The translations under genes and the position numbers were made by a program. This document shows, in pieces, positions 7,245-38,750 of a stretch of DNA of 64,000 bases. The notes beneath the pieces are model-generated. The model made no database searches. It was not told the origin of the DNA and was given only the letters and a program-made list of their open reading frames with translations. The DNA comes from Mobula hypostoma (lineage: Eukaryota), in NCBI RefSeq assembly GCF_963921235.1, contig NC_086108.1, positions 47,804,001 to 47,868,000 on the forward strand, given 5' to 3'. The number at the start of each line of letters is the position of its first letter. The first letter of the stretch is position 1.

Positions 7245-7504
7245 TTATAAACTGGGCATATTTGTTTTGGTGCATGGGCTCCATTCATTGGTTTCTGGAT
7301 CATATGCTTCCAGGTTGTTCAGAAACTCATTGCCATCGAAGCCTCCCACAGCATAAAGGAGTCCATTTACTACAGCAACTCCAGCATTACTCCTTGCTGA
7401 TGTCATACTTCCCATCATCTTCCACTCATTTTTGGTAGGATCATACATCTCAACACAACAGAGTGCATGGGTTCCATCGAAACCCCCAACAGCAAACACT
7501 TTTC
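7245..7504 (-). CDS. IVNS1ABP: IVNS1ABP coding exon 13 (last Kelch repeats and stop codon)
   Basis: [41 protein letters not shown]...[13 protein letters not shown], 260 nt; cag acceptor. Confidence 0.97.
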
Positions 7505-8294
7505 CTGCAAAAATAAGGGTTACATTATAAATGAAGTTGAGGGAGGGGAAAAAAAAACCCTGGCAAAGCTAGGGAAACAAATACAATGTGCATTCAGCCC
7601 CAAGCTCAGGCTATTTGTATTTCTACTTTGACTGCCAAGCCCAGCAATAATATAAGGTCAAATACACCAGATTCTGACCTCTAGCTTGTTTATGATTTGC
7701 ATGTACAAATGTTCAGATGTGGAAGTTAAGAAAAAGCTGAACCACATATAACACCGTCAACATTTCCTGATGAAAACAGGAAAGACCACCAGAATCCATC
7801 CCATGAAATAAAAGTTGAGGCTGGAATAAAGCCAAAGGAAAACAGACAAAAAGGACAGCTCCAATCATCTCTTATTCACACATGCATTCTGGGTCCAAAC
7901 AGCAGCCTCCTGTTAAGAGTTGTTCCACTACTATTTCATTACTTTAGTTCAAGCTCAGCTTTGATGGTGCACAGAAGCTGAATTGTTCAAAGCAACAGGA
8001 ATCAGGTATTAGTCTCACAGAATCTACAGCAAATGGTAATAGTTGATTTTCTATGCTGATCCCACATCCCTCTTCCTTGAAAGTGAGAGTGCACGAGAGA
8101 CACACAATTCCATCAAGATCCATAAGCATTTTATGAAAGATCTTAACTATGTTCAAGCCCAATTTGCTCAAATCCCTCCTCAAAAATAAACTTGAGTGCA
8201 TAACTAAATGAATCAATTCAGCATTTGTTCCTTGACTTTAGCCCAAGTCAATAAATTGATAAAAATCCAGACACAAGAATACATTTATTCTCAC

Positions 8295-8468
8295 CATTGT
8301 GAACAGCCACTCCCGCTCCACGGCGAGCCATATTCATGGGTGAAACCAGAGTCCAAGTGTTGTTCTCAGGGTTGTAACGTTCCACAGTATTCAGGCAATT
8401 CCAAGATTCTGCACCTCCAACCACATATAGGTAACCATCCAGTTCACATACAGCAGCCTGATGTCTAC
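8295..8468 (-). CDS. IVNS1ABP: IVNS1ABP coding exon 12 (Kelch)
   Basis: [39 protein letters not shown]...[11 protein letters not shown], 174 nt; tag acceptor, gtgag donor. Confidence 0.97.
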
Positions 8469-8632
8469 CTAATATTTCAATGATGTTTGGGAATACATGT
8501 TATAAAATGGTGCTAGAAAGTGAAAGTAGCCATTTAGCACGGGAAGATTTTAAAATATTCTGATTAAGTCCCTACATACTTAAAATGTGAAAGTACTACA
8601 AGTCTGTTAGTTTAATGTACAATCATACATAC

Positions 8633-8764
8633 GTGTATTCAGAGGAGCACAATTTGTCCAGGTTTTTGAGACTGGATCAAAAGCATCGCAATTCTTTAAT
8701 CCTTTCTGTCCATATGGATCTGAACCACCAACAATATATAGTTTTCCGTTCAGTGAACATACAC
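8633..8764 (-). CDS. IVNS1ABP: IVNS1ABP coding exon 11 (Kelch)
   Basis: [43 protein letters not shown], 132 nt; cag acceptor, gtatgt donor. Confidence 0.97.
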
Positions 8765-8829
8765 CTGTCAACCAACCAAAAATCAGTTACTAAACAAATC
8801 AGGAAATCAATTATTCTATCAACGATGCT

Positions 8830-9585
8830 TAGGATATTAATGGCGCCTAACGGCGACAACTTTGCTTGCATCTTCAGAAACAGCTCTATTTCAATCCTTA
8901 ATCTCTATTTTTCTCTTTCAGGGTTCTTCTGAAGACCCTGACCTGCAGTTACATGCTGTCTACGGTTCATTGGAGGAATGGGACCCACTCTTGGAGTTCC
9001 ATAACTGGCTGTTGTTCGGCATACCAAAGGCTCGGTCCAAGAGTCTGGGTCAAATTCCAAAGCCTAGGATCTTGGGGCTCTGGAGACAAGAGGATCAAGG
9101 GTCGGTGTCACGCCAGGAGACCCGGGATCTTCGCGATCTTCAGGCACAGAGCTCAAAAAAAGTGATGTAACAGACTTTTAACATTGTCAACCAGTGAGTT
9201 GTTTGTTATGTCTCCTCACTCGCTGTGAAAATAGAGACTTCTTCCTCCCTTATTAGGGGAAGAGAGAACCTGCTGTATGTTGAATACCAGGTGAAATGCA
9301 AAGTCCTTGGGGGTAACTGCAAGCGTGTCTTTGCTATTGCTTTGCTCACGCTTGAGTGCTCAGTGGTGGTGCTGATGCTTTTTTTTTTGCTGGTGGGGGG
9401 GATTGTTGCTTGCTGCCACTTACGCATGGAAGGGAGAAGCGGGGGGGTGGACTTTGGGGTTCTAACATTTAACTGTTGTTCATTCTTTGGGGCACTCCTG
9501 TTTTTGTGGATGGTCACGAAGAAAAAGCATTTCAGGATGTATGTTGTATACATTTGACATTAAATTGTACCTTTGAACCTTTGAC
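8830..9585 (+). repeat. Unclassified intronic retroposon-like insertion
   Basis: Starts near aatggcgcc and ends cattaaattgtacctttgaacctttga, a tandem tail typical of non-LTR 3' ends. Confidence 0.5.
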
Positions 9586-9603
9586 TATATCATGAATACT
9601 TAC

Positions 9604-9730
9604 CTGAATTACAACGATTAGTACGAAGCTCAGGCACCGGAGTCCAATCACAAGTATTTGGATTATAAGTTTCACCACAGCAAAGCTCATCTGAGTGGCC
9701 ATTAGATCCTCCGGCTACATACAGCCGACC
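9604..9730 (-). CDS. IVNS1ABP: IVNS1ABP coding exon 10 (Kelch)
   Basis: [24 protein letters not shown]...[11 protein letters not shown], 127 nt; tag acceptor, gtaagt donor. Confidence 0.96.
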
Positions 9731-9982
9731 CTACAACAGAAGAATGCATTGTAGATTTTAAGCCTTTTTAAAGATGAATTAATTTATATGAAGTTTATTT
9801 ATATTCATGGCTGAAATATTGTCAAGGGAACAGTGTGTAATGGTGAAAGGGTGGAAAAAAGAATTGGGGAATTTATTCAGCTACTCTTATTGAAAAGTGG
9901 ATCAAGCTAGAGGCAACTCCTTTAGCTTGACCAACTCCTGCTCCTACTTCATACTGTCTTGAAAAAATTTCTAATCACTCAC

Positions 9983-10104
9983 CATTAAAACTGCCATCTG
10001 AAACCGTGCCCGTGGTGTCCTCATTGGAGCAATAAAAGTCCATCCATCTGTTGCTGGATCATAACACTCGACTGTTCGCAAGCATTCCTCACGGTTATAG
10101 CCAC
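9983..10104 (-). CDS. IVNS1ABP: IVNS1ABP coding exon 9 (Kelch)
   Basis: [16 protein letters not shown]...[16 protein letters not shown], 122 nt; tag acceptor, gtgagt donor. Confidence 0.97.
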
Positions 10105-10619
10105 CTAATAATCAGTCAATTTAACAACTTATATCTTTAGCCTGAAAATACCAATGGAAACAAGATTCTACACCACAGAACACAGCTTCAAAGTACAATT
10201 TTCAAACTGAAGACAGGGCAAGTTCTCTGCACGTCTAAAGAATAGACAAATACAGGTTTAAAGTATAATGTTAAAAGATCAAGTTAGAAATACTTGTGTT
10301 AAGATAGCTCAGCAATGAAACCATTGGCTCTTTAGCTTTCTCTCCAGCACAAATAATAGTAGGTAGTTATCACTGTTGATACAGGGAGCAATTTGAATTT
10401 ACAGGAACATTTTGTGGAAACATAGTATGTGCAACTATTTCAAGGAAATAAGCTGCTGATAAACAGAATACTGTAATCATATGGGTTTTCATATGGAGTT
10501 GCTGAATGCATTCATAATAGGATTACTGCAAAGGAAAGACAGGAAATCCAGTGGAATACTGGCTTCTCAAATTTAATCACGACAAGTCCAAGGTGATGGA
10601 CTTTCTAAAGTCAATTAGG

Positions 10620-11430
10620 GAAAGGATATATACAGAAAATGGTTTAGTATTAAGAAATGTTGAGGAACAGAGTATTGTTTCTTTTTGTTTAAGTTAAACC
10701 AGGGCAGGACTAACATAGTACATGGCGGGTGCCTGGAGAGTGTTGTAGGGGTACAAACACAGTTCTCCAAAAGTGGCAACACAGATAAGATGGTGAAGCA
10801 GCATATGGTACACTTGCCTTCATATGTCAGAGAATCGAACGAAGTTGGGATGTTATGTTGCAACTTCGAAAAACACTGGTTAACCCACAAGCAGGAGTGA
10901 TGAGTGCTGTCTGCCCACCACACTTTAGGAAGGATAGATAGGTTGGAAGGTGTCAAGATTCACCAGGATGTTGCCACCAACCCTCCCATGATAGGGGTAT
11001 ATTAAAAAGGCAAATGTTTATTTAAAGTGGGAGGAAGGAGTTTAAAAGGGGGACAAGGGGAATGTTTTCATTCCTGACACAGCAAATGGAACCCACACAA
11101 CCCTAATCGCTGCCTCGGTAATAGCACTCACTTGACCATTTTACTCTACAGCACTTGTTTTAATTATGTTCTTTTCTACAGTTCTGCACAACTTTTCTTG
11201 TGAATTTTATGTTTCTATCTAATGCATGTACTTGAGATGCTGCTTTTCATTGCACCTGTGAATATGACGAACTTGACTATGTGTTGGAACCTGCTGCCAG
11301 AGGTGGGAGTAGATATAATCACTGCATTTTAAAGCCTTTTAGACAGGCAACTGGAGTGGAAAGACTACAGCACAGAAATAAGCACTTGACCAGCCCATCT
11401 GTGCTGATTTTTGTGCCCATCTGGACTTGC
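10620..11430 (+). mobile_element. Highly degraded CR1 3' fragments, interrupted by another LINE tail
   Basis: Patchy similarity to the 1-610 type sequence (gattcaccaggatgttgcc, gaacctgctgccagagg). Confidence 0.55.
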
Positions 11431-11681
11431 TGTTTGATAGTGGAGCTATATTTCCATGTTTTAGACTCCTTTATTACACAACCCTCCCCCCCCAAAAAAA
11501 AACCCGTGGATAAAGACCAAGCAATTAACAAACAACCCAGTTATACAAAACTAGTAGGTGATGTTGTACTAGATTTCCATTGTCTTCTGAGAAACCACCT
11601 AAAAATAGAAATAGTTTCTACCATCCCCGTATCACCCTTCCTCTAAAAACAGCAATTCCTTTCTGGAATGTTCACACTCAC

Positions 11682-11900
11682 CAGCAACAATTAGTTTGCC
11701 ATTCAGCTCTGCTGTTCCTAGACCAGAGCGAGCGTACTGCATGGGAGACAGGAGTTTATCATCTTCAGCCTGAATCTCTAAACTTATACTCTTTATTAGA
11801 CAAGGAGTGGTGGCAGGTGAACTGTGCGGACTGTTGCGGCCATGAAGAAAGATGACACACAGCACACCATTTAGAACAGCCAAGCATAGATAAGTAGTGC
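11682..11900 (-). CDS. IVNS1ABP: IVNS1ABP coding exon 8 (linker and start of Kelch 1)
   Basis: [24 protein letters not shown]...[22 protein letters not shown], 219 nt; tag acceptor, gtgagt donor. Confidence 0.96.
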
Positions 11901-12139
11901 CTATAAAGCAAAATAATTGCCAATGAGTACGTGGCAATACTTGTATTAAAACACAACTACTTTATTGTAATAACACAAATGTTGCAAAAGGGTGGGCAGG
12001 CAGGGAGGCCTAATTTGCCTTTCTCCCAGTTTAAACTACAGCCCTCTCTGTTGGCAACATTAGGCAGAACAGAGTGTTCTCTTCACTAGTTGTATAAACA
12101 TTTCATTCCAAATCAGAATCACTGGAATTATAAACTTAC

Positions 12140-12260
12140 TTGACGTTTTCTCTGAGGCAATGATTTTCCACTCATGTTTGTTTGTTTGCACTTGAGTAGA
12201 CAGATTTCCAGAAGTGCTGCTGTATATGTGCCGGTGATTGCTCTCCCGCGGAGATTTCTT
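12140..12260 (-). CDS. IVNS1ABP: IVNS1ABP coding exon 7 (linker)
   Basis: KKSPRESNHRHIYSS...KHEWKIIASEKTS, 121 nt; cag acceptor, gtaag donor. Confidence 0.95.
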
Positions 12261-12974
12261 CTGCAAAATCAAATGAGTAGCTAGAAAACCTAGCTAAGCT
12301 GCACTTGTACTCAGCTACTATCTTCACCATATTCTTACTGATGCACCAGTTACTGCATCATAGACAAGAAATTTGTCCAACAGATTCTAATTCACCTCCT
12401 CAAACCCATCTGTTGTAAAGAAGTTGCAAACTCTGCAAAAAACTTTTTTGTTAACAGATGTGTTCTGTGCTAAAATGTCAGATAAATCAGAATTAAACCC
12501 CTGGTCTCAGAGAATGAGAGAAAGTGATGGACAAACACAGGCCAGAAAATGCCAGCGACTAGGTGACAAACATAATGCACAGTTTATGCATTTTCAATCT
12601 GCACTGGACCTCAATAGTTCCATCTAATATCAGAGAATACTAATGATGGGCTGCCAACACAAGGTCTGATATTTCTACAGGTTAAGGAATTATCCCATAA
12701 TCTTTCCTTAAAATTCCATAAGCAACATCAAGACTGCCAACACCAGTCAACATTCCACAGGTTACTTGCTGTCCCATTTTCACAATCACAAAGGGATCCA
12801 TGGCCTGGTTGAGCATACACTTTTGTAGAACCTCAGGTGAACCACCAAATCCTATGTTTTATTCCTTAATGTATACTCAGGTTATTCTACTAAAGTTCTG
12901 TGCTAGACCAATTTGATAATTGAATGTACCATCCTGACATTTAGTGTCTATGTACACCCATTAATATTCAGTAC

Positions 12975-13082
12975 CTGTACAAACTGAATGTGGTCATCAT
13001 CAATGCCAAACACTTCAGCCTGTCCATCTAGTACGCTCCCATCAAGCAGTTTGTGATCAGCAGAGTAGTACAAGGTTTGAAC
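12975..13082 (-). CDS. IVNS1ABP: IVNS1ABP coding exon 6
   Basis: [36 protein letters not shown], 108 nt; cag acceptor, gtac donor. Confidence 0.97.
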
Positions 13083-16072
13083 CTGCAAAACAGCAATAAA
13101 AACCCATGTGGCTACTGTTTCCATAGCAACAAGTTATGTTATGCAAGCTCCTGTTTGCATTTAGCTTCTCAGCGCTGGAAGCTTTCTCCTTTCCTGAGGA
13201 GGTCTGCCGTTGTCTGATAGAAAATTAAGAGACATTTGCACAGTGGTGGCCGTCCACTCTAAATAATGGGATGACTGGTCCATTGTCCACTTGATTGCTT
13301 TGGAAACCTGAGGCACAAGAAATTCACTCCAACAAATGAAGCAAGGTGTTTTCTTTTACGTTGCAGAGCTCACACTCGATGTTGCTAGGAAGAAATTTTG
13401 CAAGAAACAGGAAATGCAAGAAATGCAGAAAAACTAATGATATTAAGATCTCTTCCTTGTGCACAGAGAATTGATTGGGAGAGGATGTTTATGAGGGTGG
13501 TGAATGAACAAAGTATTCTTTGAAAAGTTATTCTTCAACCCACCCATAAATAGTGACTGAATTTATGGCCTATAATTAGATGCTGATGAAATGTAAAGCA
13601 CAAATTAAAGGCATTTTCTTCAAGCCTTCTAAGGCATCATTTGCTACCGCTCCAATATACACAAAGCCAAACATAAGGAGCAAAATTAATTGTATTACAG
13701 ATCTATGTAGTCATGAGCCATGTAATACTGTAAAGCAAAAAGAACCTACATTTTGTCATTAATTAGAAATGCATTTGGAAATGTTGGTCAGCCGAGAAGC
13801 TTACAAAGAACAGGTTCTTGATTGCAACTAAGACGTCGAGAATGTTCACCCATGGTTAGATCTTACAAGCAGCCAGAACTACAGCAACCAAAATGGTTCA
13901 GGTCCATTACATTTCCTCACTGAATTATTCTGATGGATTGTCACTTTTATCTGGCTTGGGGAGCTTGGAGCAAACTTTTATCTTTCCCTTTGCCATGTAC
14001 TTACTGTAGTATCTAAAGACATCAATGACCTTGCCCAGGGCTTATTATAGCGAGGCTGCCTGCAAGTAACAAGTACTGCTGCTGCTCAGTACCAGGACTG
14101 GGGACTCAGGATTCAGTGAGTCTGAGCCATTGTTGGCAACTGGTGTGGGCCGTGTTGCTGAACTACTTGAATGCTACGGTTTCCCTCTCACTTTGTGTGG
14201 TACATGCATGCTGCCATTTTCCTTAATTTCCTGGAGATTTCTCAAATGGTAATATGCTCAATTACAGCAAGCATCCAATGATCTACGTAGTGTTTCAACA
14301 GAAGCAGTGTAGTCAATCGTAAGCAATGGACCCCACCTGCTATTCTGACCAGGGTGATGCTGATCTGCATGTCAGTGCTAAGCAGTCACACTAGTTCCAT
14401 CAACATGCTCGACACCAGCAGCAGATGCAGCCTTTACACAGTGAAATGTGGGAGATTCACAGCTGGGAATCCTCCCCTGGATGGCAGGGGGTTTGCACAA
14501 GGTTCCTAGCAGTTCTTTTAAAAAACACAGGACGGGGACAGTACTTGCATGAAAAAAGTGTAAATGGAGAAGGAGTGCTATAATAAATCAGCATGTTGTG
14601 CAGGTATATTGTATGTACAGTTCTCTTCAACTAAGTACATTTAGATCAGCACTGCATCTTGCACATTAAACATGGTTATATATTCAAAAACAGCTTTGTG
14701 TACGTGTTCTCATTTTAGGCTATATTAGTGCCAAAAATTCCAAAATCTGAAGTCAAAACATTTTCAGAATTGAGTGCAACATTAAGCAGATTTCCTACCC
14801 GTTTTTCCTGTACCCAAGAACAAAAGTTTCTGTACCAAATTAGGTTAGGGATTAGCATCAACTGGAACTAATAATTTTCCTGTTGAAAACAAAATACTAA
14901 AATGGGGTATGATTATGGAGCAGCAAAGACAAGTAGGCCGCGTATGTAAATCTATTTGGATCCAGGACTAAATCTGTAACAAGATACAGGTAGTTTGTTT
15001 TGAATAATAAATCTTCTACAACTATCATTTCCCAAATCTTGAATATGCCAAAACCAGATTATGGCTTTAATCTCCAAAAGAACCTTTGGAAGCACATGTG
15101 CTGCAAGTAGCTCAAATCTGAACTGAGTTGAGAACTAGATTTGAAGAGTAGAGCAGTGAAGTACCCTGTAAGCAGCAGCCAAACTAGTACAAAGGTGAAA
15201 TTTATCTGACAGTATCAAATAAGGTTTCAGGAAGCCCACGAAGCATAGATACAATTGACTAAATATCCATTTCTGTGTCATAAAATTCTACTGATCTGAC
15301 AACAGCCAACCAGACGTTCATATTGCTAATACAAACAAATCCATGGATTTGTACATTCAATTGTTTGAAAGTTCACAGCTTTTGCAGATAGAGTATAATT
15401 CAGTCTTGCGAAAGTCAAAAGTTCTCTGCTTAGTTTACTGTGTCCTTCTTCCGCCCCCTCCAAGCATCTATTTCTTAACATTACCAAAAAAAATTACCAA
15501 TATATTAAGCAATTTTAGTCAGATTGTCATAACATTAATTTAAGTAACCTTATTAATCCTGCAAAGGAGCAAACACAATTAAATCAACTCTTGCCCAAAG
15601 CAAAATTCTGCAGACTTTAGGGAAAGGTCGCTGCTTCGTTATGAGCCACTACCCTCGCAGTATCTTCCATTTTCTTCAGGCTTGTAGTATCCTAGTTTTG
15701 TTAGATTAAACCTAAGGAAATAAAAATCAATTGGGAAGGAGAGAAATTAGAATATTGTACTTACTCATATGGATTAGCTGTGGAAGAAAGCAATTAAAAC
15801 ATAGGAAAAAAAGTACCTTTTCTCCCTTTCTCTAAAGCTTTTCCTACACTGTAAAACAAAGTGCTTTATAAAAAAAAATCATAAATAAGGTAGCAGAGAG
15901 CAGGAAAAAAGACTAAATTATACTGCTCACCTTCACACCCCCACTTTCTCAGCTTAGGGGCACCTACAGCAAAATTTAAATTCTTTAGGATCAGTTCTTT
16001 TATATATTAAAAAATCACACTGTCATAGGTATAAGCCTCCATATAAACATAAATAACTGTTGTGATACTAAC

Positions 16073-16198
16073 CTCTTCCATCAGATCTTCCAGGTTCTTT
16101 CCATTCTCCCAGACACTACGCTGCACCCAGTTGATTACCTTTGTGTAAACTTTACCATTACTTGGCAAGCATACATTTTCTTCTAATATCACCTCCAA
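16073..16198 (-). CDS. IVNS1ABP: IVNS1ABP coding exon 5 (BACK)
   Basis: [42 protein letters not shown], 126 nt; cag acceptor, gttagt donor. Confidence 0.97.
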
Positions 16199-16418
16199 CT
16201 GAGAAAAGATACATTCAATTAAACTGGTTTGTCAAGTTTTAAAGAAATGACATGAATACTGAATGCAGTTAACACAAGGTGAAAAAAAATGAAAATGGAG
16301 AGAAGATCGTTTTATATAAAAACCAAGAAGCAACTCAAACTATACATCAAAATTGTGCCATGGCTTGAAAAACAAAACAAAAATCAGACAAATTAATTTA
16401 ACACATCTCAAACTTCAC

Positions 16419-16592
16419 CTTTAATCGTGGAAGTTTTAAAAATTCTTCCTGTTCAGACATCTCCAACAAGTTCTCTTGAATACAACTGTCAATTTGACTC
16501 AACAACCGGGAATCTCCCATCTGACTGGCAAAATTTCGATAAGAAATACAGTTCTGGACATCCATCCTGGATAGTATATAATCACCACAGAC
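16419..16592 (-). CDS. IVNS1ABP: IVNS1ABP coding exon 4 (BACK)
   Basis: [11 protein letters not shown]...FLKLPRLK, 174 nt; tag acceptor, gtgaag donor. Confidence 0.96.
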
Positions 16593-17865
16593 CTAAAAAG
16601 CAGGGCAAGATGATACTTATTGAGAGAAAGAGAGAGAGAGAGAGTGAGAGTGAGGGTACGTACACACTAGGACTCGTACTGTGATCTGAAATTCTACATC
16701 AAGTTATTTGAACATTGAGTATTTCTTCAGTTCATCCACAACTTTTCAGACACAGGAATTTAGGAGCGGGCATTGTGTGTTTGAACACATGCACGGGGGG
16801 GAGGAGGGGGTTAAATTGGCTGGGAGTGGCTGGCACAGGACAGGAAAAGGGCAATGCTTCAGTACAATCTAATGCGCATACAGGTAATCCTCAATTTATG
16901 GATTCGGCTTTGTATCAATGACTCAATTTTCTCATGTCCTTAAGAATCTATTCTTCGTTTAGCAATTAGCACACCCACTATCTCATAACAGAAATACCCA
17001 CCTTACACTTCACCAACCCTGTGATCAATTTCCAGAAAATTAAACACCTTCTGGGAATAGATTCTCTTCACTCAAGATAAAGATCAATTGCACTGAAGTT
17101 ACACTAATACGTGCACAATGTAATACATCCAAAATATTAAGTTCTAAGTTAAAGTCTTGTTCCATAACACAAATGTTGGGAATGGAAACATTGGAACATG
17201 GCTAGCATTGTCTGGAACCAACCCAAGCATCACACCAGATGATTATTATTACCTTCAAATTCTTCATAGTTCACCTGAAGTAGTGAAATTGTTTCACTTG
17301 CACTCCCGGCTGCTTCTGGCATCTCCAAGACTGAATGCTTGAAACCACAGTGAGCAAAATAGTTCTGGATTGTCTTACTACTTCTTTTGCTCGCCAACTA
17401 TCAGTGATAAAAATCACTGCTTTTTGAAAACAAACATGTAATTGACACTACTTAGAAACTTCGGCAAGTCTCCTGTCGCAATTAAGCAGCATAGTGTCCC
17501 AAATAACAAAGGGAGTCCTGGCTATTTTCCTTGATTAGTCTTTGCTCTTTAAAAACTGTCCTAAATAAAGCAGATGCCTCTACTAACCGATGTGCCAATT
17601 AATCAGAATCCACCGTATGTGCAAAGTCATAGTAGAATGCTCAAACTTCACAGTATGTTTGAGGGTGACTTGCAGAATTTATTTACTCACTTGACAAATT
17701 GATGGTTAATGCTGACCTAGTCCAACTATGAACATGAAGTGATTAGTTTTTAAAATATGAAATAAAATAATTTATTCAAAACAAGTGTGAGCTAGATAAT
17801 CCCACTGCCAAAAGGTAAAGCATTTTGCCCAAAATCTCAGAGCAGCTATACAAACACAAACATAC

Positions 17866-17941
17866 CTGTCTCACCCGGTCCATCTTCAATTTTTTGGCAG
17901 CCGAATATACATCCTTTACAAGTTCTTTGTCTGCTTTTAGT
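17866..17941 (-). CDS. IVNS1ABP: IVNS1ABP coding exon 3 (BTB)
   Basis: [25 protein letters not shown], 76 nt; cag acceptor, gtatg donor. Confidence 0.97.
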
Positions 17942-18535
17942 CTGCAAAGTAATAAATACATGTTTCCATTTCAGAATTTAAACCCACAAGTCAGGTGAAG
18001 TCCCTGAATACCAGTTCAATCTACATGCCGATTAAACAGTGTAACTAGTTAGCAGTAGAAAACTGTCAATACATTGATTACTGCAGCAAGTACATTCACA
18101 GATTAAATGTTATTACAAATCAATGACTGCTTCAATTTTTTGTCACGTCAAATTGCTTTTATTAAAGAAGGAATCTCAGGTTTCCGATCACAGAATGAGC
18201 CAATTTTTCACTGCTCTGATCAGCCTAGACATGGGTTCTGCGCAACTCATTCCTATGAAGTTTAAAAACCAAAATCAGACAGTAAGGCAGTTAAACACCA
18301 AAGAGTTAAGTAGTCTCAATCAAGCTGTCCAATGCAATCTCAGGAATCTACCATTGAAATATTAGGGGTTTGCAATGCCCTAACAGGAAAATAAGGCAGA
18401 ATATTGCCCCAAAAAAACTAAGGTAAATAAATCTTAGAATTGATGGCTTCCAAATGTTATTGTTTTAACAATTTTAAGTTTGCAATTATAGCTACTTTGA
18501 AATATAATTTAAGAACTTTACATAGACATACTTAC

Positions 18536-18705
18536 TGTGCAGTGTAGGCATAATTCATTAACACCTCAACTGCAGCCGGATTGAGGTCATCAAATTTCAC
18601 ATGAGAAAATCCATGGGGATCACTATCATTGTTGAAAATTTCAAACAAATACGGGCTACAGCAAGCAAGGACAGCTCTATGAGCCAGCATCTCATGTCCA
18701 CAGAC
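18536..18705 (-). CDS. IVNS1ABP: IVNS1ABP coding exon 2 (BTB)
   Basis: [24 protein letters not shown]...LMNYAYTA, 170 nt; tag acceptor, gtaag donor. Confidence 0.97.
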
Positions 18706-20952
18706 CTAAAAATGAGAAACACCTGCATTAATAACTTCTGCATTAATTTTATGATGAAAATTTATATTGAGGAATTTGTAATCTTTTGCCACAGCTACAT
18801 GCTTCATTTTATCTTTCAGTGCATTTAATTTCCTAATTCATAATAAATAAGTAACTTGCAGTTAGGGCAAATTCAATGTAACCACTGACAAGATTGAAAC
18901 TAGCCACTGAATTCAAACATACTCACTTAATACCAAAGACTATCAAGTGCTGCTATTATGACTTGGACAATAGGAGCATTTTCTTTAACTTGTGGGTTTT
19001 TAAACTCTCCCTTCAATTTAGGGAAGCAATTTGGCACATCAGAATAGTGCATTTTCAGACAGGAATCAGTTATTCCACAACTCTCTCTTCCCCCACTCCC
19101 TGAAACTTAAAAAGGGTGCTAGGGAATGATGTCAATATCCACAAAGCCAAGGACCTGAGATAGTGTGCCAGACAATGAACATGCAAAGTTATTCATGTGT
19201 GACTTAACTTTTTAAAAAAAAAACGTGGATTGGGTTGCAGACTAAACAATTCACCAATCAATTCTTTCTGGAGGAGTAACAGGAGGAAAAAAAAAGTGAA
19301 GCTGAAGAATGTGGGTGCACTGGGGAGAGTGCAAAGGACTTGTCCCACACTGTTGTCTACACTGGATGATTATTCTATAGTTCTTACAGTTATAGTTTTT
19401 CTGAAGCATGTAAAGGGGGTGACATGAAAATAGTACTTGGATGAGTGTCAAAAGGTTGGCATGATGGATGAGGCAGCCTCTTATGCCACAACAGGCATAA
19501 TTGGCAAAAATCCAGTTTAAAAACAAGTTATCTTTACTAACTTCAAAAGATATCATTCAATACCCCTACAAAGATCACATGCTAATGGCTAATATCACTC
19601 AGCCTTGCACTTGTATCCATCTTCAGATTTACCCCTCGTATCCACAGGGAATACAATTTCAATTGTAGCTTTCTAGCTATAGATATATTCAAAGGTTCTG
19701 CTTACTTAAGAGTCCATGAAACCCTTTGCTAGAACTGTTAATTTTACAAGTGTTGTCCTTTGCATTTCTGATTTGGTCTGGAATATGAAGTTAAGACACT
19801 TTCCAACAATTGCATTATTGGTAAGTGTGACCCTGCCCCCTCCTACACTGAGGAGTAGTGTACGTCCATGCTCCCATTGAGTCCCAGGCCCAAGAGACAT
19901 GCTAAGTACTGCAGAGATCAACAATACAGACCTATGTTTATTTATAACCAGAGAAGCAAAGGTCTCAATGTAGGAACAGCACTATAAATAATCACTATAG
20001 TATGGGTCAAATTAAGGCAATAGTGGATGCTGACACAGCTCCCATGCCCTGCAGCAGAATACTGAAGTCAAAAGTAGATTAGAGGAAGCAAGATGGAAGA
20101 AAAATTTACGTGCAAATTGCCTAAAGAAACCAGGCATTTTTAAAAAACAAAAAAAAGTTATGCCACTGAAGATTATTAGGAGCCCCTGAAAAATAACTGG
20201 GAATGAATCTAAACTGAAAATACCACTCAATTCCTGCTTTAAAGACAGTTGAAATGGAGGTTAAAGTTAGACCAGTCCATCTGGTATCTATTTTCAACTT
20301 TTTATAAGGGGATATTAATGACGTAGAAATGGAACAAACCAAGTCATCACATAGGATGAGGGCACTTGAGAAAGTTACACAAGAGAACTGGTCAGCCAAT
20401 GCTGATAGCTACAGGAATAAAATCCAATTAATATCAGCTATTTGATTAAGAGCCTAGACTAATAAAATGAGTACAAGTCTGCAAGGATCTGTCCTTCATT
20501 TGGAAATAAATGAGCAGAATTTTATGTGGATTAAAATAGTGGGAAGCAAATTACTAAGCTTTCACCCCAAAACTTAAATTTCCTTCATCTTTCCCCCCCG
20601 CCCCCAAATAAACAGTAATTTGAAAACTTGTACAAATTCTACTTTTAGTAGAACTCAGCCAGCAAAACCCATCTACCCACATTCTGAAACTGGTCTTGTC
20701 CAGCCATTTACCAGCTACAGGAATGAGGTGTCAGCAAACTGAACTTGGGTTGGATATGGTGCAAAAGCAAGCCCATTCTTTGTGAGAAGGACCAACTGTG
20801 CTGAAGGAACATGAAAAGCCTTATGGTCATCTTTAAATTTCAAATTCTGAACACATTAGGGGCATAGTGCTAAATACAAACTTGATTAAACTAGCTGCAT
20901 AATATCAACTAATAAACACTCAAATTATTCATTCACTCAGTATTATGAATAC

Positions 20953-21063
20953 CTGCAGTCTCACATCACAGAACTGTCCACTTTTTCTTAGAGCATTGAG
21001 TTTGGCCACAGATGATTCAATGAAATTCTCATCTTCAAAAACTAAATACCCATTAGGGATCAT
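20953..21063 (-). CDS. IVNS1ABP: IVNS1ABP coding exon 1 (start codon, BTB N-terminus); the exon begins at 21089 with 26 nt of UTR
   Basis: [37 protein letters not shown], 111 nt; acceptor ttttaacag, donor CAG/gtatt. Confidence 0.97.
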
Positions 21064-23907: not shown

Positions 23908-26900
23908 AGAACACAAGAAATAGGAGCAGGAGTAGGCCATCTGGTCCGCCCAGCCTGCTCCGCAATTCAGTAAGATCATGGCTGATATGGCCATGAACTC
24001 ATCTCCACCTACCTGCCTTCTTCCCCCCCCCCCCACATATATCCAACCTTGTCTTAAATATATTTACTGAGATAGCCTCCACTTCTCCACTAGGTGGAGA
24101 ATTCCAGATTCACCATTCTCTGGGAAAAGCAGTTCCTCCTCACCTCCGTCCCAAATCTACTCCCCTGAATCTTGAGACTATGTTCCCTAGTGCTAGTCTC
24201 ACCTACCAGTGGAAACAACTTTCCTGCATCAACCTGGTGAACATCCTCTGCACCACCTCAAGTTAGTATATCCTTCAAGTAAGGAGACCAGAACCACATG
24301 CAGCACTCTAGGTACAGCCTCACAAGTACCCTGAACAGTTGCAGAATAACCTCCCTGCTCTTTAAATGCAATCCCTCTAGTAATGAAGGTCAACATTCCA
24401 TTTGACTTCCTGATAGCCTGCCGCACCTGTAAGCCAACCTTGTGATTCATGCACAAGCACTCCCAAGTCCCTCTGCACAGCAGCAGGCTGCTATTTTTTT
24501 TTTTTAAAACCATTTAAGTAATTTGCCCTCTCATTTTTCCCTTCCAAAGTGGATGACCTTACATTTACCAACATTGTACCACATCTGCCAGACCCTTGCC
24601 CACCCACCTAACTTATCCATATATCTCTGCAGACCATCTTCAGCAGTTTGCTTTTCCACTCAATTTAGTATCAGCAAGCTTAGATACACTACTCAGTCAC
24701 CTCTTCCAGATAGTGAAATGTACATCACAAATAGATGTGTGCCGACCCCTGCAGCACACTGCTCACCACTGATTGCCAACCTGAGTAACACTTATGTATC
24801 CAACTCAATGTTCTATTAGTTAACTAATCCCCTATCCATGCAATACATCACCCCCAGCTGTATGCATCCTATCTTACGGATGTCTATTATGTGGTATCTT
24901 ATCAAACACCTCTGGAAATCCAAGTAAATAATGTCTATCTGTTGACCTCTACTTACGGCATTCATTACATCCTCAAAAAACTCCAGTAAGTTTGTCAAAA
25001 TAGGACCTGCCTTTGCCAAATTCCTCCTACATGTACCTGATGGATCCATTTATCCCCCCACAAGATGCCTTGCTATTTCTTTAATTACAGCTTCAAGCAT
25101 TCCCCCCCCACCACCCAACTACAGATGTTAAAATAACTGGCCTATTGTTACTTGCCTTTTGCCTACTTCCTTTTCTGAACAGTGGCGTGACATTTGCCAT
25201 CTTCCAACCTGCTGGGACCTGCCCAGAGTCCAGAGAATTTTGATAAATCAAAGCCTCTATAGTAACTTCTGCCATTTCTTTCAGTACCCTGGGATGCATT
25301 CCATCAGAACCAAGAGATTTAGCTTCAGGCTCACAATTTTGCTCAGCACTACCTCTTTAGTGATAACTAATGTATCGAGGTCCTCACCTCCCATTGCATC
25401 CATAACATCTCTTTGGCATGTTAGACATTTCCTCCACCATGAAGACAGACAAAATAGTCATTCAAAACCCCAGCCATTTTCTCGCTAGCCAATATTAATT
25501 CCCCCCTTCATCTTCCAAGGGACCTACATTCACTTTAGTCACACTTTTCCGCGGAATACAAAAACATCTATCCATTTTTATACTTTTGCGCTAGTTTATT
25601 CTCATAACCTAGCTTCCCTTTTTTTATTGCTTGCTTAGTGGTACTTTGTTGCTTTAAGTTTCCCCAATCTTCCAGTTTCCCACTAGTCTTAGCAACTTTG
25701 TACACACGTGTTTAGTTTGATGCCTTCTTTTATTTCCTTAGTTATCCAAGGCTAGCGCTCCCCACCCTTACCATCCTTACTTTTAACTGGAATATACTTT
25801 TCTTGAGCACTGAAAAAGCTCTGAATGTCTTCCACTGTTCTACCATATAGCCTGTGTTCTCAGTCTACACTAGCCAAATCCTCCCTCATCCCATCATGGT
25901 CTCCATTGTTTAGGCATAATACACTGGTTTTAGATTGAACTATTACACCCTCCATTTGTATAAGAAATTCAATCATATTGTAATCACCTTTTCCAAGAAG
26001 ATCCCAACAAGATAATTAGTTTTACCTGTCTCATTGCACAGGACCAGATCTAAGATAGCACGTTCCCTTGTAGGTTCAGTAACATGTTGTTCAAGAAAGC
26101 CATCACAGATGCATTCCATTAAGACCTCCTCAAGACTACCCTGACCAACTTGATTCACCCAATCTTTGTGCAAGTTAATGCCCCCCTTGATAACTGCTGT
26201 TCCATTCTTACATACTTCCGAAATTTAACTGTGCCACTGATGTTATTATTCAGTGGCCTATAGACAACCCCCAGTGATTTTCTCCCCCCCACTTCCCATT
26301 CCCAATCTCTACCCAGATGTATTCAGCATTCTGTTCCTTAGATCTTATATTGTCCCTCACTATCACCCCGATCTCATCTTTGAGCACTACCCCACCTCCC
26401 TTACCTTTCTTTCTATCCTTCCATATTACCTGATACACTTGTATATTCAATTCTCAATCCTCTCCATCCTGCAACCACATCTCTCTGTAATGGCTACTAA
26501 AGCATACCCCAGTACTGATTTGAGCCCAAGTTCACTGAACTCATTTCTAATACTACAGGCATTCAAATAAAGTGCTCTTACACTCCGTGCTTTTAAAATG
26601 ATGTAATCTTGTAATCTTTTACTCTTCTGCACTTGACTTTTCTTCACACCACTTTCACTCCTTGTCATCTTGTTTTTCATCCATACTTCTCCAACCTGTT
26701 GAACTCACCCCCTTGTGATTTGCTAGGATCCAGGTCCCATTACCGTTCAGAAGCCCGTCCCATTGGTACAGCTCCCCAATACTGCTATCAATTTCTCACA
26801 AATCCAAATCCACTTCTCCCACACTAATCCTTGAGCTATGCATTTAACTCTAATCTTCTTGACCATATGCCAATTTGCACATGGCTCAGGTAGTAATCCA

Positions 26901-27130
26901 GATATTACCACCTTTTTGGTTCTGCTTTTTAATTTAGACCCTAACTGCTCAAATTCCCTCAGCAGAACCTCTTTCCTCATTCTACCTATGCTGTTGGTAC
27001 CCACAAGGACCACAACATCTGGATCTTTCCCCTCCCACTGCAAGTTCCTCTGCAAGTCAGATAAAATGTCCCGAACAAAGGCATCAGGCAAGCAACACAG
27101 CCTTCAGGATGCCCTTTCTTTGTGACAGAA
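23908..27130 (-). mobile_element. Older, decayed CR1 LINE (ORF1 esterase, APE and RT remnants) in the first intron
   Basis: PDVVVLVGTNSIG; LYLNACSIRN..AITE; HPRVLKEMA..WKMANVTPLFRKG; LTNLLEFFEDV..YLDFQ; 3' tail at 23908. Confidence 0.9.
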
Positions 27131-27169
27131 TTGTCTATACTACCCCAATTAAAGATATAAATCTATAAT

Positions 27170-27375
27170 AGTAGTTGTGCTGTCAAGTCATTGTCAACTC
27201 ATGGCAACCCCATAAATAGTGTAGTTGTCCATAGGGTTTTCATGGAAAGATACAGAAGGAGATTGCCAGATCTTTCTTCCGTGCAGATACTGCTGCCACC
27301 ACCCAGGTTGGGATCTGGCCAGATTCGAACACAGAACTATCTGCCTCGAAGTCCCTTGCTGAGGCCACTATGCAT
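27170..27375 (-). mobile_element. tRNA-derived SINE with an RTE-like 3' tail
   Basis: The minus strand has tagtggc (A-box-like) and gttcgaatc (B-box), and ends gggttgccatgagttgacaatgacttgacagcac. Confidence 0.6.
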
Positions 27376-30596: not shown

Positions 30597-31619
30597 AGTA
30601 ACTCACTGTATAAGAACTAGCCACTTCTGCCTTTATTTTGATTCAATGTACACTATTCGACTACTATAGCTTGCTGACCATATCCTAGACTCGTTAAGAA
30701 ATGTGAACTTATTTTGTACGAAAACTGGCATTTTAAAAATTTGTGCATATTCTTAAAGTAGTACAATTTAACCTACAAGTTGTAATACTAAACGCTTGTC
30801 TCCAATATAATCAAGTTACATGCACATGGAGTTAAAATATTATACCCTTATTTTGAAAGTACGCAACAGCGTGAACGAAAACTTTTGGAAATCATTACTG
30901 GCTTGTGATTTGTAATAATACACCAAGACACTAGGTGATGCTCTCTACCCGAAATTGATTTGGTCTAGCATAGCTTCTAGAATTCACCAAAGCGCAATTG
31001 ACGCCATGTGAATTTACTGCTCAATCCTTAGTCCAGAATTCAGCAAAATTTTGCCAGGATTCGGTATTGCCTGTTCTAATACATAGCCTACGTTATCTAT
31101 AGAATGGCGATAACTTGTGGACCTGTGATCCACAGATTGTTCGACTGCAAGATTACATATTTCCTCATGGAAGTACAATACAATACGGGACAAAACACCA
31201 TGTTATAGGAAAGTCTCCGTTTCTGTTTGACGCATTTCCCCCATTAGCCACATTCCCCTCGCAATACCAAAGGTCCGCAGATTCACAACTGGAATCCAAA
31301 AATTTTGCTTTGTTCTTCGTACACCCACCAACCCAACTGTGGCCGCAGATCTTACGTTCGCTTATTCGATGAATTCTGCCCATTCTCTAGAGGCATCTAA
31401 ACTAGCTCACCCATTAAAAAAGAGAAAATAAACCCCCGCACTACAGTTCCCCCAATCTTAACGAGTGATTGGCAGCCTCCGTTTCCCTCCACGCACATAC
31501 CACTAAACAAGTCACCCGCTCAGTCTCAACCTGCCCCACCGCCACCTAATGCAAACGTTAACCGTATCCTAGGCCTTCCATCTAACAAAAGAACCCCTGT
31601 TTGATTTCTTTTGTCACTC

Positions 31620-32720
31620 CCTAGCCCTTAAACGTTTTGTTTCGTAGGGTCTGTGATCCTCCTCTACGACGCGAGGAGAATGGCAGAACCAAACAATGCC
31701 GTGTGCCCTGCCATCGCCCAACCTGAAACCACACCGAGACAGGTAGGAGAGAACGAGGGAGGCGGGTCTGCGCAGCGAGCGGACGTGGCCGTACCGCAGG
31801 CTGGTCGGCCCACGGGCTCTGACACCCCCACCGCCCACGTTCTATTCACGGTCTCCAGCCCGGGACCGCGCCGCGACTGTTGGCGTTTAAAACACAAGTT
31901 AACCCGTTGCGTTCTTCGAGACCCGATTCAACCAAACTCGACAGCTCGCAACACGAGACCACTCACCACCCCCCCCCACAACACCCCCGCCCTCCAAAAT
32001 CTGGCCGATTGGCCACGGGCTTCGCTCACAACGACCACCCGGACGGTCGATCAAGGCGCCATACAGCAGCACAACCGCAAAGTTAGCTTGTCATTGGAAC
32101 CGTGAGGGGGGGGGGAAGATGAATTCCTCACGCCTCAACAAAGAAAAGCAGAAGTATTAGAGACCTTCGACACGAGCCGCATACGCTAACTCGGAAGCGT
32201 CTAAATAAATCGTACCTTTCTGAGGATAAAACGGAGGATACAAATCATATTTGATGAAGTAAACGTTCTATCCTCTGCTGAGCGCCCTCACCGCAGTAAA
32301 TTACCGAGAGGCTCCCCAGCAGCCTACAGCTTCCGACAGACCGCTGCAACTGCTGACTCCCCCGCGCCCAGATAAATAGTGACGTGTAATGAGTTGTGTG
32401 CGCGCAGTGCGCATGCGCCCGGGTTGAGTCCGCTCCTCCCCACCACCAGCCCGAAGTGTTTGCGCGCGGACCCGGGTTCGGGTTCGGCTCGGCTCGGCTC
32501 GGCTCGCGGCGCGGGAGATGGTGGGCCGGTGGTGCTGCATTCAACAGACCGATTACTGGAGCACCGTTCACCGCATTTCTTCGCGCCTACGCCCCCCTCC
32601 CCCCGCTTGCTTATGCTTATTAAAGACGAGGTTTATCCTCCTCGCTCGCGTTTCTTCATCGACACAGCTACGGTTTTTGGCGAAGCTCAACGATGGCCGG
32701 AAGACTGTTTCGCTTGAATG
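31620..32720. promoter_or_regulatory. CpG island / IVNS1ABP promoter
   Basis: The only long GC- and CpG-dense non-repeat stretch in an AT-rich window. Contains TATTTAT (minus, 32372-32378), CRE-like TGACGT (32380-32385) and NRF1-type TGCGCATGCGC (32408-32418). Confidence 0.85.
32216..32350 (-). other. IVNS1ABP: Candidate 5' UTR exon 1 of IVNS1ABP
   Basis: Inside the CpG island, downstream of a TATA-like element; donor AAG/gtacg starting at 32215. The transcription start is approximate. Confidence 0.55.
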
Positions 32721-35530: not shown

Positions 35531-38500
35531 AAGCTGATTTGTTGGATCTCCTTGCCCAATTTTGACAAATGCCAGGTGATTTCTTAGGAATTGATGGTCA
35601 ATTTTGTGGATTCCCAAGGCGATCCACTCATGATTATGTATTATTGCCCCGCTATATAGGTATTTAAACATGATGCACCCAAGTAGGGAAATGATCTGGA
35701 AAGTTTGAGTATGGTTATTCAGAATGTTGCTTTACTTAACACAAGGTCCTTCAATCGATGTATGTTCCAAAAGTTCACATACAGGATTTTGCAACATTAA
35801 CTCGGCTAGCTAGGCCTTTGTAATGAATGTGTCATATGCTTATGGTGATGCCAGGTGTCTTAACTAGTTTTCTAGTTAACTAGTTATTGTATAATGTAAA
35901 TGTTTCTTTTGTAGATACTAACTTCTTACATGACATATATTTACCCAGGTATAACAGTGCTATTTGTTTCTGTGAGGTTTTAGTTATATTGTGTTCAGAA
36001 GTGAGCTTACATAATTGTATATTTTATTACTTGAAAGGACAAGTTAAGTTTAAAACCACATACCTTTCCCTCCACCAACCCCTTCAAGAACGGAATGTGA
36101 TTATTTCCTTTGCCTATCAGCTTCTTCAGCCTCTGAGTATGTTGACTGAGAACTCTGCAACAAGGATAATAGCACTTGGTTGCTTTCATTGTCAAATGAA
36201 CATACAATGTAATATTTGCAAGCATACTGCAAGTACTTCACTCAGTTATAATGATCCACCATGGAGAATAAGAAAACAATTTTCATAGTGAGAGCCTGTG
36301 ATTTTAACTATGTAATTTCATACCATTCTGGATTATTTCTAATGAGAATAGAATCTGCTGCATCTTTGTTACTAAACTGCAGCATAACTTCCTCACTTTA
36401 CATAGAAAATAGGTGCAGGAGTAGGCCATTTGGCCCTTTGAGCCTGCACTGCCATTCAGTATGATCATGGCTGATCATCCAACTCAGAACCCTGTACCTG
36501 CCTTCTCTCCATACCCCCTGATCCCTTTAGCCACAAGGGCCATATCTAACTCCTTCTTAAATATAGCCAATGAACTGGCCTCAACTGTTTCCTGTGATAG
36601 AAAATTCCACAGTTTCACCACTCTCTGTGTGAAGAAGTTTATCCTCACCTCGGTCCTAAAAGGCTTCCCCTTTATCCTCAAACTGTGACCCCTCGTTCTG
36701 GACTTCCCTAACATCGGGAACAATCTTCCTACATCTAGCCTGTCCAATCCCTTTAGAATTTAATATGTTTCAATAAGATCCCCCCCTCAATCTTCTAAAT
36801 TCCAGAGAGTATAAGCCTAGTCGATCCAGTCTTTCATCATATGAAAGTCCTGCCATCCCAGGAATCAATCTGGTGAACCTTCTTTGTACTCCCTCTATGG
36901 CAAGAATGTCTTTCCTCAGATTAGGGGACCGAAACTGCACACAATACTCCAGGTGTGGTCTCACCAGGCCTTGTACAACTGCAGTAGTACCTCCCTGCTC
37001 CTGTACTCGAATCCTCTCGCTATAAATGCCAGCATACCATTCGCCTTTTTCACCGCCTGCTGTACCTGCATGCCCACTTTCAATGACTGGTGTATAATGA
37101 CACCCAGGTCTCGTTGCACCTCCCCTTTTCCTAATCGGCCACCATTCAGATAATCTGTTTTCCTGTTCTTGCCACCAAAGTGGATAACCTCACATTTATC
37201 CATATTAAATTGCATCTGCCATGAATTTGCCCACTCACCTAACCTATCCAAGTCACCCTGCATCCTCTTAGCATCCTCCTCACAGCTAATACTGCCACCC
37301 AGCTTCGTGTCATCCGCAAACTTGGAGACGCTGCATTTAATTCCCTCGTCTAAGTCATTTATATATATTGTAAACAACTGGGGTCCCAACACTGAGCCTT
37401 GCGGTACCCCACTAGTCACTGCCTGCCATTCTGAAAAGGTCCCATTTATTCCCACTCTTTGCTTCCTGTCTGCCAACCAATTCTCTATCCACATCAGTAC
37501 CAAACCCCCAATACCGTGTGCTTTAAGTTTGCACACTAATCTCCTGTGTGGGACCTTGTCAAAAGCCTTTTGAAAATCCAAATATACCACATCCACTGGT
37601 TCTCCCCTATCCACTCTACTAGTTACATCCTCAAAAAATTCTATGAGATACGTCAGACATGATTTCCCTTTCACAAATCCATGCTGACTTTATCCAATGA
37701 TTTCACCGCTTTCCAAATGTGTTGTTATCACATTTTTGGTAACTGACTCCAGTATTTTCCCCACCACCGATGTCAGGCTTACCGGTCTATAATTCCCTGG
37801 TTTCTCTCTCCCTCCTTTTTTAAAAAGCGGGGTTACATTAGCCACCCTCCAATCCTCAGGAACTAATCCAGGATCTAAAGAGTTTTGAAAAATTATCACG
37901 AATGCATCCACTATTTCTTGGGCTACTTCCTTAAGCACTCTAGGATGCAGACCATCTGGCCCTGGGGATTTATCTGCCTTTAATCCCTTCAATTTACCTA
38001 ACACCACTTCCCTACTAAGATGTATTTCCCTCAGTTCCTCCATCTCACTGGACCCTCGTCCCCCACTATTTCCGGAAGATTATTTATATCCTCCTTAGTG
38101 AAGACAGAACCAAAGTAGTTATTTAATTGGTCTGCCATGTCCTTGTTCCCCATGATCAATTCACCTGTTTCTGACTGTAAGGGACCTACATTTGCCTTAA
38201 CCAATCTTTTTCTTTTCACATATCTATAAAAGCTTTTACAGTCAGTTTTTATGTTCCCTGCCAGCTTTCTCTCATAATCTTTTTTCCCTCTCCTAATTAA
38301 GCCCTTTGTCCTCTCTAATAGACTCTGAGTTTCTCCCAGTCCTCAGGTGTACTGCTTTTTCTGGCTAATTTGTATGTTTCTTCTTGGAATTGATATTATC
38401 CCTAAATTCCCTTGTCAGCCACGGGTGCACTACTTTCCCTGGTTTATTCTTTTGCCAAACTGGGATGAAAAATTGTTGTAGTTCATCCATACGATCTTTA

Positions 38501-38750
38501 AATGCTTGCCATTGCATATCCACTGTCAACCCTTTAAGTATCATTAGCTAATTCACGTTTCATACCTTCAAAGTTACCCTTCTTTAAGTTCAGAACCTTT
38601 GTTTCTGTACTAACTATATCACTCTCCATCTTAATGAAGAGTTCCACCATGTTATGGTCACTTTTACCCAAGGGGCCTCGCATGACAAGATTGCTAACTT
38701 ACCCTTCCTCATTACTCAATACCCAGTCTAGAATGGCCTGCTCTGTAGTT

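What the first reader, a model, noticed from the sequence alone, without database searches (positions are those of the whole stretch)
15549..15963. Tandem cluster of candidate stop-introducing micro-exons just after the BACK-domain exon of IVNS1ABP
Seen on the minus strand, within 400 nt of the phase-0 donor at 16072, are three well-formed units. (a) A 33-nt exon at 15963-15931 (ttttgctgtag / GTGCCCCTAAGCTGA...GAAG / gtgagc) reading VPLS*. (b) A 32-nt purine-rich, frameshifting exon at 15848-15817 (tttgttttacag ... AAAAG / gtact), extendable to 84 nt at a gtaagt donor (15764) with an in-frame TAA. (c) An acceptor at 15712 (tttttatttccttag) followed by GTT TAA, giving a 220-aa BTB-BACK protein. 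The spacers are 109, 82 and 105 nt, which are plausible short introns. Established: mouse Nd1 has a Kelch-less short isoform, Nd1-S (about 221 aa), and NS1-BP acts in splicing with hnRNP K. Inference: this is an ancient splicing switch that yields a Kelch-less isoform or NMD targets, possibly autoregulatory.
Basis: partly seen in the sequence, partly recalled or inferred. Interest (0 to 1): 0.72.

Follow-up and report, generated by a model that had tools for sequence, protein, structure and literature searches.

The report
Ancient poison-exon switch in ray IVNS1ABP
An intron of IVNS1ABP, a splicing-helper gene, in a ray-like fish likely carries the message-destroying "poison" exon already known from humans and mice, plus a 33-base exon-like element that closely matches birds and mammals; whether the fish splices either one is untested.

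Summary
All coordinates are correct, but these are not three equivalent micro-exons. Unit (c) is most likely the start of the known IVNS1ABP poison exon. Its acceptor lies 361 nt after exon 7 (human 388, mouse 407), and it probably opens a 163-nt cassette (human 141, mouse 145). It gives an EEV-stop tail like the EEVY-stop or EEV-stop tails of 28 of 196 stored proteins, including mouse Nd1-S. Unit (a) is the real extra: read-through translations from another batoid, birds and mammals fit it with at most 2-4 mismatches in 51 nt, and more loosely in some teleosts. Its length varies (33-50 nt) and no stored protein ends in its VPLS tail, so it is likely a decoy or minor poison exon. Unit (b) has no support. 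Published human knockdown data show hnRNP K repressing the poison exon and do not support negative autoregulation. No read alignment was obtained, so splicing in the ray is untested. Verdict: an older member of a known switch, with one conserved element I did not find described.

The parts
7245..21063 (-). IVNS1ABP (NS1-BP, KLHL39) coding region: BTB, BACK and Kelch repeats, 13 coding exons
   Evidence: tblastn of shark and ray NS1-BP on the window; Pfam on a shark orthologue
16073..16198 (-). Coding exon for aa 178-219, the end of BACK; orthologue of human exon 7
   Evidence: Exon arithmetic; the human exon-7 RT-PCR primer from PMC8501971 matches 16140-16120 exactly, once
13083..16072 (-). 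Host intron, 2,990 nt (human and mouse about 1,370 nt)
   Evidence: mouse and human coordinates
15938..15994 (-). Conserved block: about 30 nt upstream of the (a) acceptor plus most of (a)
   Evidence: 14 of 67 read-through peptides score 42-68 here; the highest null score is 24.5
15931..15963 (-). Unit (a): 33-nt exon-like element with an in-frame stop, weak acceptor (3.1 bits) and strong donor (10.9 bits); likely a decoy or minor poison exon
   Evidence: Sequence, scores, conservation; splicing untested
15817..15848 (-). Unit (b): 32-nt purine-rich candidate, or 27 nt from a second acceptor at 15843; unsupported
   Evidence: Acceptors 5.0 and 6.1 bits, donor 5.5; no peptide match above null
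15765..15777 (-).
   Evidence: Acceptor 10.5 bits, donor 5.3
15549..15711 (-). Unit (c): likely orthologue of the mammalian poison exon and Nd1-S exon; starts Val-stop; 163 nt if the weak donor at 15548 is used
   Evidence: Acceptor 9.1 bits with branch-point-like motifs; position and tail match published and database forms; the 3' end is inferred
15549..15558 (-). Strongest acceptor in the intron, 10 nt before the presumed donor of (c); may compete with that donor
   Evidence: 13.3 bits against 4.1 for the donor; role inferred

Best explanation
This intron is likely the ray version of the known IVNS1ABP poison-exon switch, and unit (a) is a conserved exon-like element that likely acts as a decoy or minor second poison exon. 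Shown: the exon-7 donor is followed by several acceptors, and joining it to (a) or (c) would place a stop within five codons. Inferred: skipping everything gives full-length NS1-BP. Joining exon 7 to (c) gives Val-stop. If the weak donor of (c) is then used, the mRNA would be destroyed by nonsense-mediated decay. If it is not used, the RNA would stay intron-detained or end early and give a 220-aa BTB-BACK protein like mouse Nd1-S. Unit (a), with a weak acceptor and a donor stronger than exon 7's own, would compete for the spliceosome and tune how often the intron is finished productively. The control would be by other splicing factors (hnRNP K and CCAR1 in mammals), not by simple self-repression. 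Unit (b) is probably incidental.
For: (1) Same intron: the human primer matches the upstream exon, and a poison exon between exons 7 and 8 is reported in human and called known and conserved in mouse cells. (2) Geometry: acceptor 388 nt after the donor in human, 407 in mouse, 361 for (c); exon 141 nt in human, 145 in mouse, 163 predicted here. (3) Tails: 25 of 196 stored proteins end EEVY-stop and 3 end EEV-stop, among them mouse NP_001034600.1, a marsupial, platypus, turtles, lizards, a sparrow, eel and tarpon. Read-through tails from the same groups differ, so these tails are spliced forms or models of them. (4) Unit (a): P0001 and P0053 were found with exon 7 alone as the query and run on into (a). 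In one search, 14 of 67 peptides match only 15994-15935. Two mammal-type frames fit 51 of 55 ray bases, 42 of them forced and identical. A Gln-Val-Ser ending, which forces GT at the donor, is seen in 9 of the 11 peptides examined. Implied lengths are 33 (ray), 35 (bird, mammal) and 35-50 nt (teleosts), so frame is not conserved. (5) Short, deeply conserved cryptic exons in retained introns are the decoy pattern of SF3B1 intron 4 (PMC6097662), and the Ivns1abp event is listed with detained introns. (6) hnRNP K knockdown raised inclusion of the human exon by 20 points (p 0.002).
Against: No junction reads were obtained for the ray. No mammalian or bird DNA was available, so the match of (c) rests on position, length and a one- or two-residue tail, not on an alignment; the ray exon would be about 20 nt longer and lacks the Tyr codon. 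None of 196 stored proteins ends VPLS, although only 15 of 102 members of the mammalian short-isoform cluster were listed. The acceptor AG and the stop of (a) are compatible with the peptides but not forced by them. Ten of the 14 matching peptides (P0174-P0183) were fetched with a profile that contained (a), so they are not independent. Teleost matches to (a) are by eye: the best scored 21.3 against a null of 20.3, and perch-type read-throughs show a different motif. IVNS1ABP was not found in the searchable supplements of the decoy paper (one file not searched). The intron has no AATAAA and one ATTAAA at 15071, which is weak support for a stable short mRNA in the ray.
Confidence: 0.62

Rival explanations
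1. Unit (c) is the poison exon, but (a) is a conserved intronic enhancer or silencer, or an alternative donor that extends exon 7 by 142 nt, and is never used as a cassette.
For: Conservation extends about 30 nt upstream of the (a) acceptor. The acceptor is weak (3.1 bits) while the donor is stronger than exon 7's own (10.9 against 7.6). No VPLS tail in 196 proteins. A Xenopus cDNA protein (AAH71036.1, P0067) reads from exon 7 straight into the intron.
Against: The conserved block sits on an acceptor-like AG with branch-point-like motifs upstream, and the acceptor-like and donor-like ends persist in teleost peptides whose middles have diverged.
Confidence: 0.22
2. One reading: (a), (b) and (c) are three alternative stop-introducing micro-exons through which NS1-BP limits its own level.
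For: All three have GT-AG signals, site density is mildly raised, and NS1-BP regulates about 120 of about 5,500 exons tested.
Against: (c) matches a 141-145-nt exon, not a micro-exon. (b) has no support. After NS1-BP knockdown inclusion rose from 11-34% to 88-93%; skipped-form counts fell from 893-2,073 to 9-89 while included-form counts stayed similar (111-1,047 against 107-706; raw counts). That is the wrong direction for negative feedback and fits siRNA loss of the productive mRNA.
Confidence: 0.08
3. The main product is a functional 220-aa BTB-BACK protein (Nd1-S type) that would dampen full-length NS1-BP, and decay is secondary.
For: The short protein is recorded across bony vertebrates with nearly the same end. 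It keeps the whole BTB domain and 88 of 103 BACK positions. A short mouse isoform is described, and ribosomes translate up to the premature stop in human cells when NMD fails.
Against: Most records are gene models, and any exon starting with an early stop gives the same length. [quoted passage not shown] The ray intron has only one weak poly(A) signal.
Confidence: 0.2
4. All units are chance splice-like motifs in an AT-rich intron.
For: About 4.6 loose acceptor-donor pairs are expected per 540 nt of this gene's introns. This remains the likeliest reading for (b) and the 13-nt unit.
Against: It cannot explain the match of (a) to birds and mammals or the match of (c) to the published exon.
Confidence: 0.03

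Closest known systems
Human IVNS1ABP poison exon between exons 7 and 8 (141 nt, hg19 chr1:185275617-185275757) and mouse MmuEX0024799 (145 nt); PMC11321822, PMC8501971, PMC5000506, PMC10592454, bioRxiv 10.1101/2023.09.18.557780
   Same: Same intron of the same gene, acceptor 360-410 nt after exon 7, early stop, similar predicted length.
   Different: The ray intron is twice as long, the exon would be about 163 nt, and it starts Val-stop, not Val-Tyr-stop. None of the passages or supplement rows I saw mentions an upstream 33-35-nt element or a cartilaginous fish.
Mouse Nd1-S (NP_001034600.1, 221 aa; the Nd1-S name for a short form is from PMC13153415, and tying it to this accession is my inference from length)
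   Same: BTB plus most of BACK, no Kelch repeats, ends one or two residues after exon 7.
   Different: The ray form would be 220 aa; no transcript or 3' end is shown for it.
Decoy exons of SF3B1 intron 4, OGT intron 4 and ARGLU1 (PMC6097662, abstract and passages)
   Same: Short non-coding cassettes of 29-56 nt, conserved to fish, in an intron over 1 kb, with several competing splice sites.
   Different: Promotion of intron retention, U2AF binding and rare junctions are untested for unit (a).

Membership tests
IVNS1ABP exon 7-8 poison exon (unit c) | Lies in the intron after exon 7 of IVNS1ABP | tested here: met
IVNS1ABP exon 7-8 poison exon (unit c) | Acceptor about 390-410 nt after the donor; exon about 141-145 nt | tested here: inconclusive
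   361 nt and a predicted 163 nt; close but not equal, and the ray donor is weak
IVNS1ABP exon 7-8 poison exon (unit c) | In-frame stop right after Val or Val-Tyr | tested here: met
   GTT TAA; database tails. That the database tail comes from the published exon is inferred
IVNS1ABP exon 7-8 poison exon (unit c) | Nucleotide homology to the mammalian exon | not testable with these tools
   No vertebrate locus found in the DNA collections
Poison exon (AS-NMD) | Premature stop more than 55 nt upstream of a later junction | tested here: met
   Seven coding exons follow; holds for (a) and (c)
Poison exon (AS-NMD) | Spliced in on both sides and stabilised when NMD is blocked | not tested
   No read alignment obtained for the ray; human and mouse evidence is from papers
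Decoy exon (unit a) | Short, deeply conserved, non-coding cassette with 3' and 5' splice sites in an intron over 1 kb | tested here: met
Decoy exon (unit a) | Rare junctions to flanking exons and U2AF binding | not testable with these tools
   Needs NMD-blocked RNA-seq and CLIP data
Decoy exon (unit a) | Promotes retention of the host intron through its splice sites | not testable with these tools
   Needs a minigene
Frame-preserving coding microexon | Length a multiple of three and free of stops, kept across species | tested here: not met
   (a) carries a stop and its implied length is 33, 35, 38 or 50 nt; (b) is 32 nt
Autoregulatory poison exon | Inclusion falls when the host protein is depleted | tested here: inconclusive
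   Inclusion rose in the one human row found, confounded by siRNA loss of the skipped form

The most novel reading that the evidence does not exclude
IVNS1ABP intron 7 is a multi-decoy detained-intron switch as old as jawed vertebrates: an undescribed 33-50-nt cryptic exon, kept from rays to mammals, works with the known poison exon and an acceptor that overlaps its donor to hold the RNA in the nucleus until hnRNP K, the partner of NS1-BP, releases it.
Probability: 0.28. Interest if true: 0.58.

Novelty: new member of a known kind. Interest (0 to 1): 0.38.

Why it matters
It would date the IVNS1ABP poison-exon switch to the common ancestor of jawed vertebrates. It also points to a second conserved element, about 120 nt into the mammalian intron, that the papers I found on this event do not mention. 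IVNS1ABP is a splicing co-factor used by influenza virus and is mutated in a progeroid neuropathy, so an element that sets its level would be a simple minigene target and a place to look for intronic variants. The mechanism class is well known, so the surprise is moderate.

Tried and rejected
Sequencing runs: no RNA holder listed among 22 runs, and no read alignment was obtained, so junction use in the ray stays open. Searches for vertebrate copies of the locus found none: 0 of 146 candidates in metagenome contigs, 1 of 33 in prokaryote genomes, a chance 11-residue bacterial match, 0 of 96 in viral contigs, and 0 exact matches to a pattern across the (a) acceptor. RNA structure over 16072-15540 is not unusual (z 0.33). 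Duplication or repeat origin: one match in the own genome. Conservation of (b), the 13-nt unit and (c): no peptide scored above null, but few run far enough, so this is inconclusive (13 of 80 peptides were dropped as too short or canonical). In the splice-score calibration one constitutive acceptor was misplaced (-8.4) and ignored; two real ones scored 0.6 and -3.8, so the recalled matrix is rough. Papers: nine searches and the passages read showed no mention of an upstream small exon or of sharks and rays. PMC7954529, PMC9304896 and PMC12329114 gave nothing usable. Three look-ups by recalled id were not held. The bioRxiv supplements and genome-browser or VastDB annotation could not be seen and may already list (a). 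Earlier scan notes: none on this gene or sequence.

Full report
Setting. The window holds IVNS1ABP on the minus strand, coding from 21063 to 7245, in a 3.48-Gb genome. The exon before the finding is 95% identical to the ray Narcine bancroftii and 88-90% to sharks, so I call the host ray-like. That exon, 16198-16073, ends after codon 219 in phase 0, and the next coding exon starts at 13082. A published human exon-7 primer matches 16140-16120 exactly and only once, so this intron is the human exon 7-8 intron.

Observation. Three further acceptors were missed: before 15843, 15777 and 15558. With a recalled, rough splice-site matrix, the flagged region has about twice the loose acceptor-donor pairs of this gene's other introns (9 against 4.6) and 3 strong ones against 0.41. 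Because the region was chosen after the fact, this alone is weak.

What is known. A poison exon between exons 7 and 8 of human IVNS1ABP rises when CCAR1 is lost (PMC11321822, passages). A preprint calls it known and conserved in mouse cells (10.1101/2023.09.18.557780, one passage). It is 141 nt in human (PMC8501971 supplement). In mouse it is 145 nt, lies 407 nt after the donor, and rises from about 16-33% to 51-70% under ER stress or starvation; the paper groups it with detained introns (PMC5000506 passages and supplement). Ribosomes stop at its premature stop when NMD fails (PMC10592454 passages). In the supplement of PMC6008300 the human acceptor lies 388 nt after the donor. Zebrafish ivns1abpa retains introns numbered 8 and 9 in sfpq mutants (PMC9681851, one legend); I did not map these onto this intron.

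Unit (c). Its acceptor lies 361 nt after the donor, scores 9.1 bits and is followed by GTT TAA. The likeliest donor in range is a weak one at 15548, giving 163 nt; weaker or later ones give 59 or 214 nt. Among 196 stored proteins, 25 end EEVY-stop, 3 end EEV-stop, 62 continue into the next exon, 77 read into the intron, 2 differ and 27 lack the exon end. The EEVY forms include mouse NP_001034600.1, other mammals, a marsupial, platypus, turtles, lizards, a sparrow, eel, tarpon and perch; the EEV forms come from two esociform fish and a loach-type contig. Read-through tails from the same groups start EEVS, so the short tails are spliced forms or models of them. Position, length and tail together make (c) the likely orthologue of the mammalian exon. 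No nucleotide alignment was possible, so this step is inferred.

Unit (a). Gene callers sometimes translate from exon 7 into the intron, which gave an indirect view of other species' DNA. Two such peptides, found with exon 7 alone as the query, run into (a): P0001 (batoid-type exon) and P0053 (sparrow-type exon), the latter 16 of 20 identical to the ray frame. A profile search added mammal-type P0109, P0110 and P0207 and ten more peptides like the bird one; those ten contain no exon 7 and were selected by the profile. In a codon-aware comparison with the first 1,200 nt of the intron, 14 of 67 peptides scored 42-68, all at 15994-15935, with 1-4 unavoidable base changes over 39-60 nt. The other 53 scored 21.3 or less and the highest null was 24.5. 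Two mammal-type frames, possibly from different species, fit 51 of 55 ray bases. The acceptor AG and the stop are allowed but not forced; the donor GT is forced wherever the peptide reads Gln-Val-Ser. Five teleost peptides show similar ends with a diverged middle (P0158, P0163, P0165, P0198, P0204), but this is by eye, and perch-type peptides carry another motif. The implied intron before (a) is 103-148 nt outside teleosts, so (a) is not the 141-145-nt exon. Its implied length of 33-50 nt breaks frame in most species, so it is not a coding microexon. No stored protein ends in its tail.

Unit (b) and the 13-nt unit. Their sites are moderate and nothing matched them. One mammal-type peptide runs about 110 nt past the (a) donor without a match, but it ends near where the acceptor would be, so this is inconclusive.

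Mechanism. The sequence shows that exon 7 can meet several acceptors and that (a) and (c) would each add a stop with seven coding exons downstream. The rest is inferred. Use of (c) with its donor would feed NMD. Use without it would leave the downstream intron detained or give a 220-aa protein with BTB and most of BACK. The strongest acceptor of the intron sits 10 nt before that weak donor and could interfere with it. Unit (a) pairs a weak acceptor with a strong donor, and it resembles the 29-56-nt conserved decoy exons of SF3B1 intron 4 (PMC6097662, abstract and passages). I put this reading at about 0.6; a non-exonic element or alternative donor at (a) is the main rival.

Autoregulation. One row of RASL-seq data covers the human event. 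hnRNP K knockdown raised inclusion from a mean near 27% to 47%. NS1-BP knockdown raised it to about 91%, but the skipped-form counts collapsed while included-form counts held. Negative feedback predicts a fall. The result fits an included RNA that escapes siRNA, as a nuclear or early-ending RNA would.

Novelty and verdict. The switch is published for mammals. What I did not find in nine paper searches is its presence in a cartilaginous fish and the conserved upstream element; browser and VastDB annotation were not available and may list it. New member of a known kind, interest 0.38.

Noticed in passing
Read-through peptides P0121, P0122, P0129, P0137, P0140, P0143, P0144, P0160 (perch-type exon 7): Many share a conserved intronic motif 70-130 nt after the donor that does not match ray unit (a); percomorph fish may have a different conserved element here.
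   Followed up: partly
window 15549-15578, minus strand: The strongest acceptor of the intron lies 10 nt before the presumed donor of (c); a 10-nt exon here would read Asp-stop-stop.
   Followed up: partly
window 13083-16072, minus strand: No AATAAA in about 3 kb of AT-rich intron and a single ATTAAA at 15071.
   Followed up: partly
window about 36500-40900 and 24000-27200, minus strand: Fragments that look like LINE reverse transcriptase and endonuclease reading frames, broken into several pieces; the family assignment is from recall.
   Followed up: no
window about 31600-32700: GC-richer stretch with short GCCGA-type repeats, about 11 kb upstream of the IVNS1ABP start codon; possibly the promoter and first non-coding exon.
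   Followed up: no
window 8468 and 10104, minus strand: Two constitutive IVNS1ABP acceptors have very poor pyrimidine tracts (-3.8 and 0.6 bits).
   Followed up: no
P0092 (painted turtle isoform X3): An 11-residue in-frame insert after the next exon suggests an alternative donor in the following intron of reptiles.
   Followed up: no
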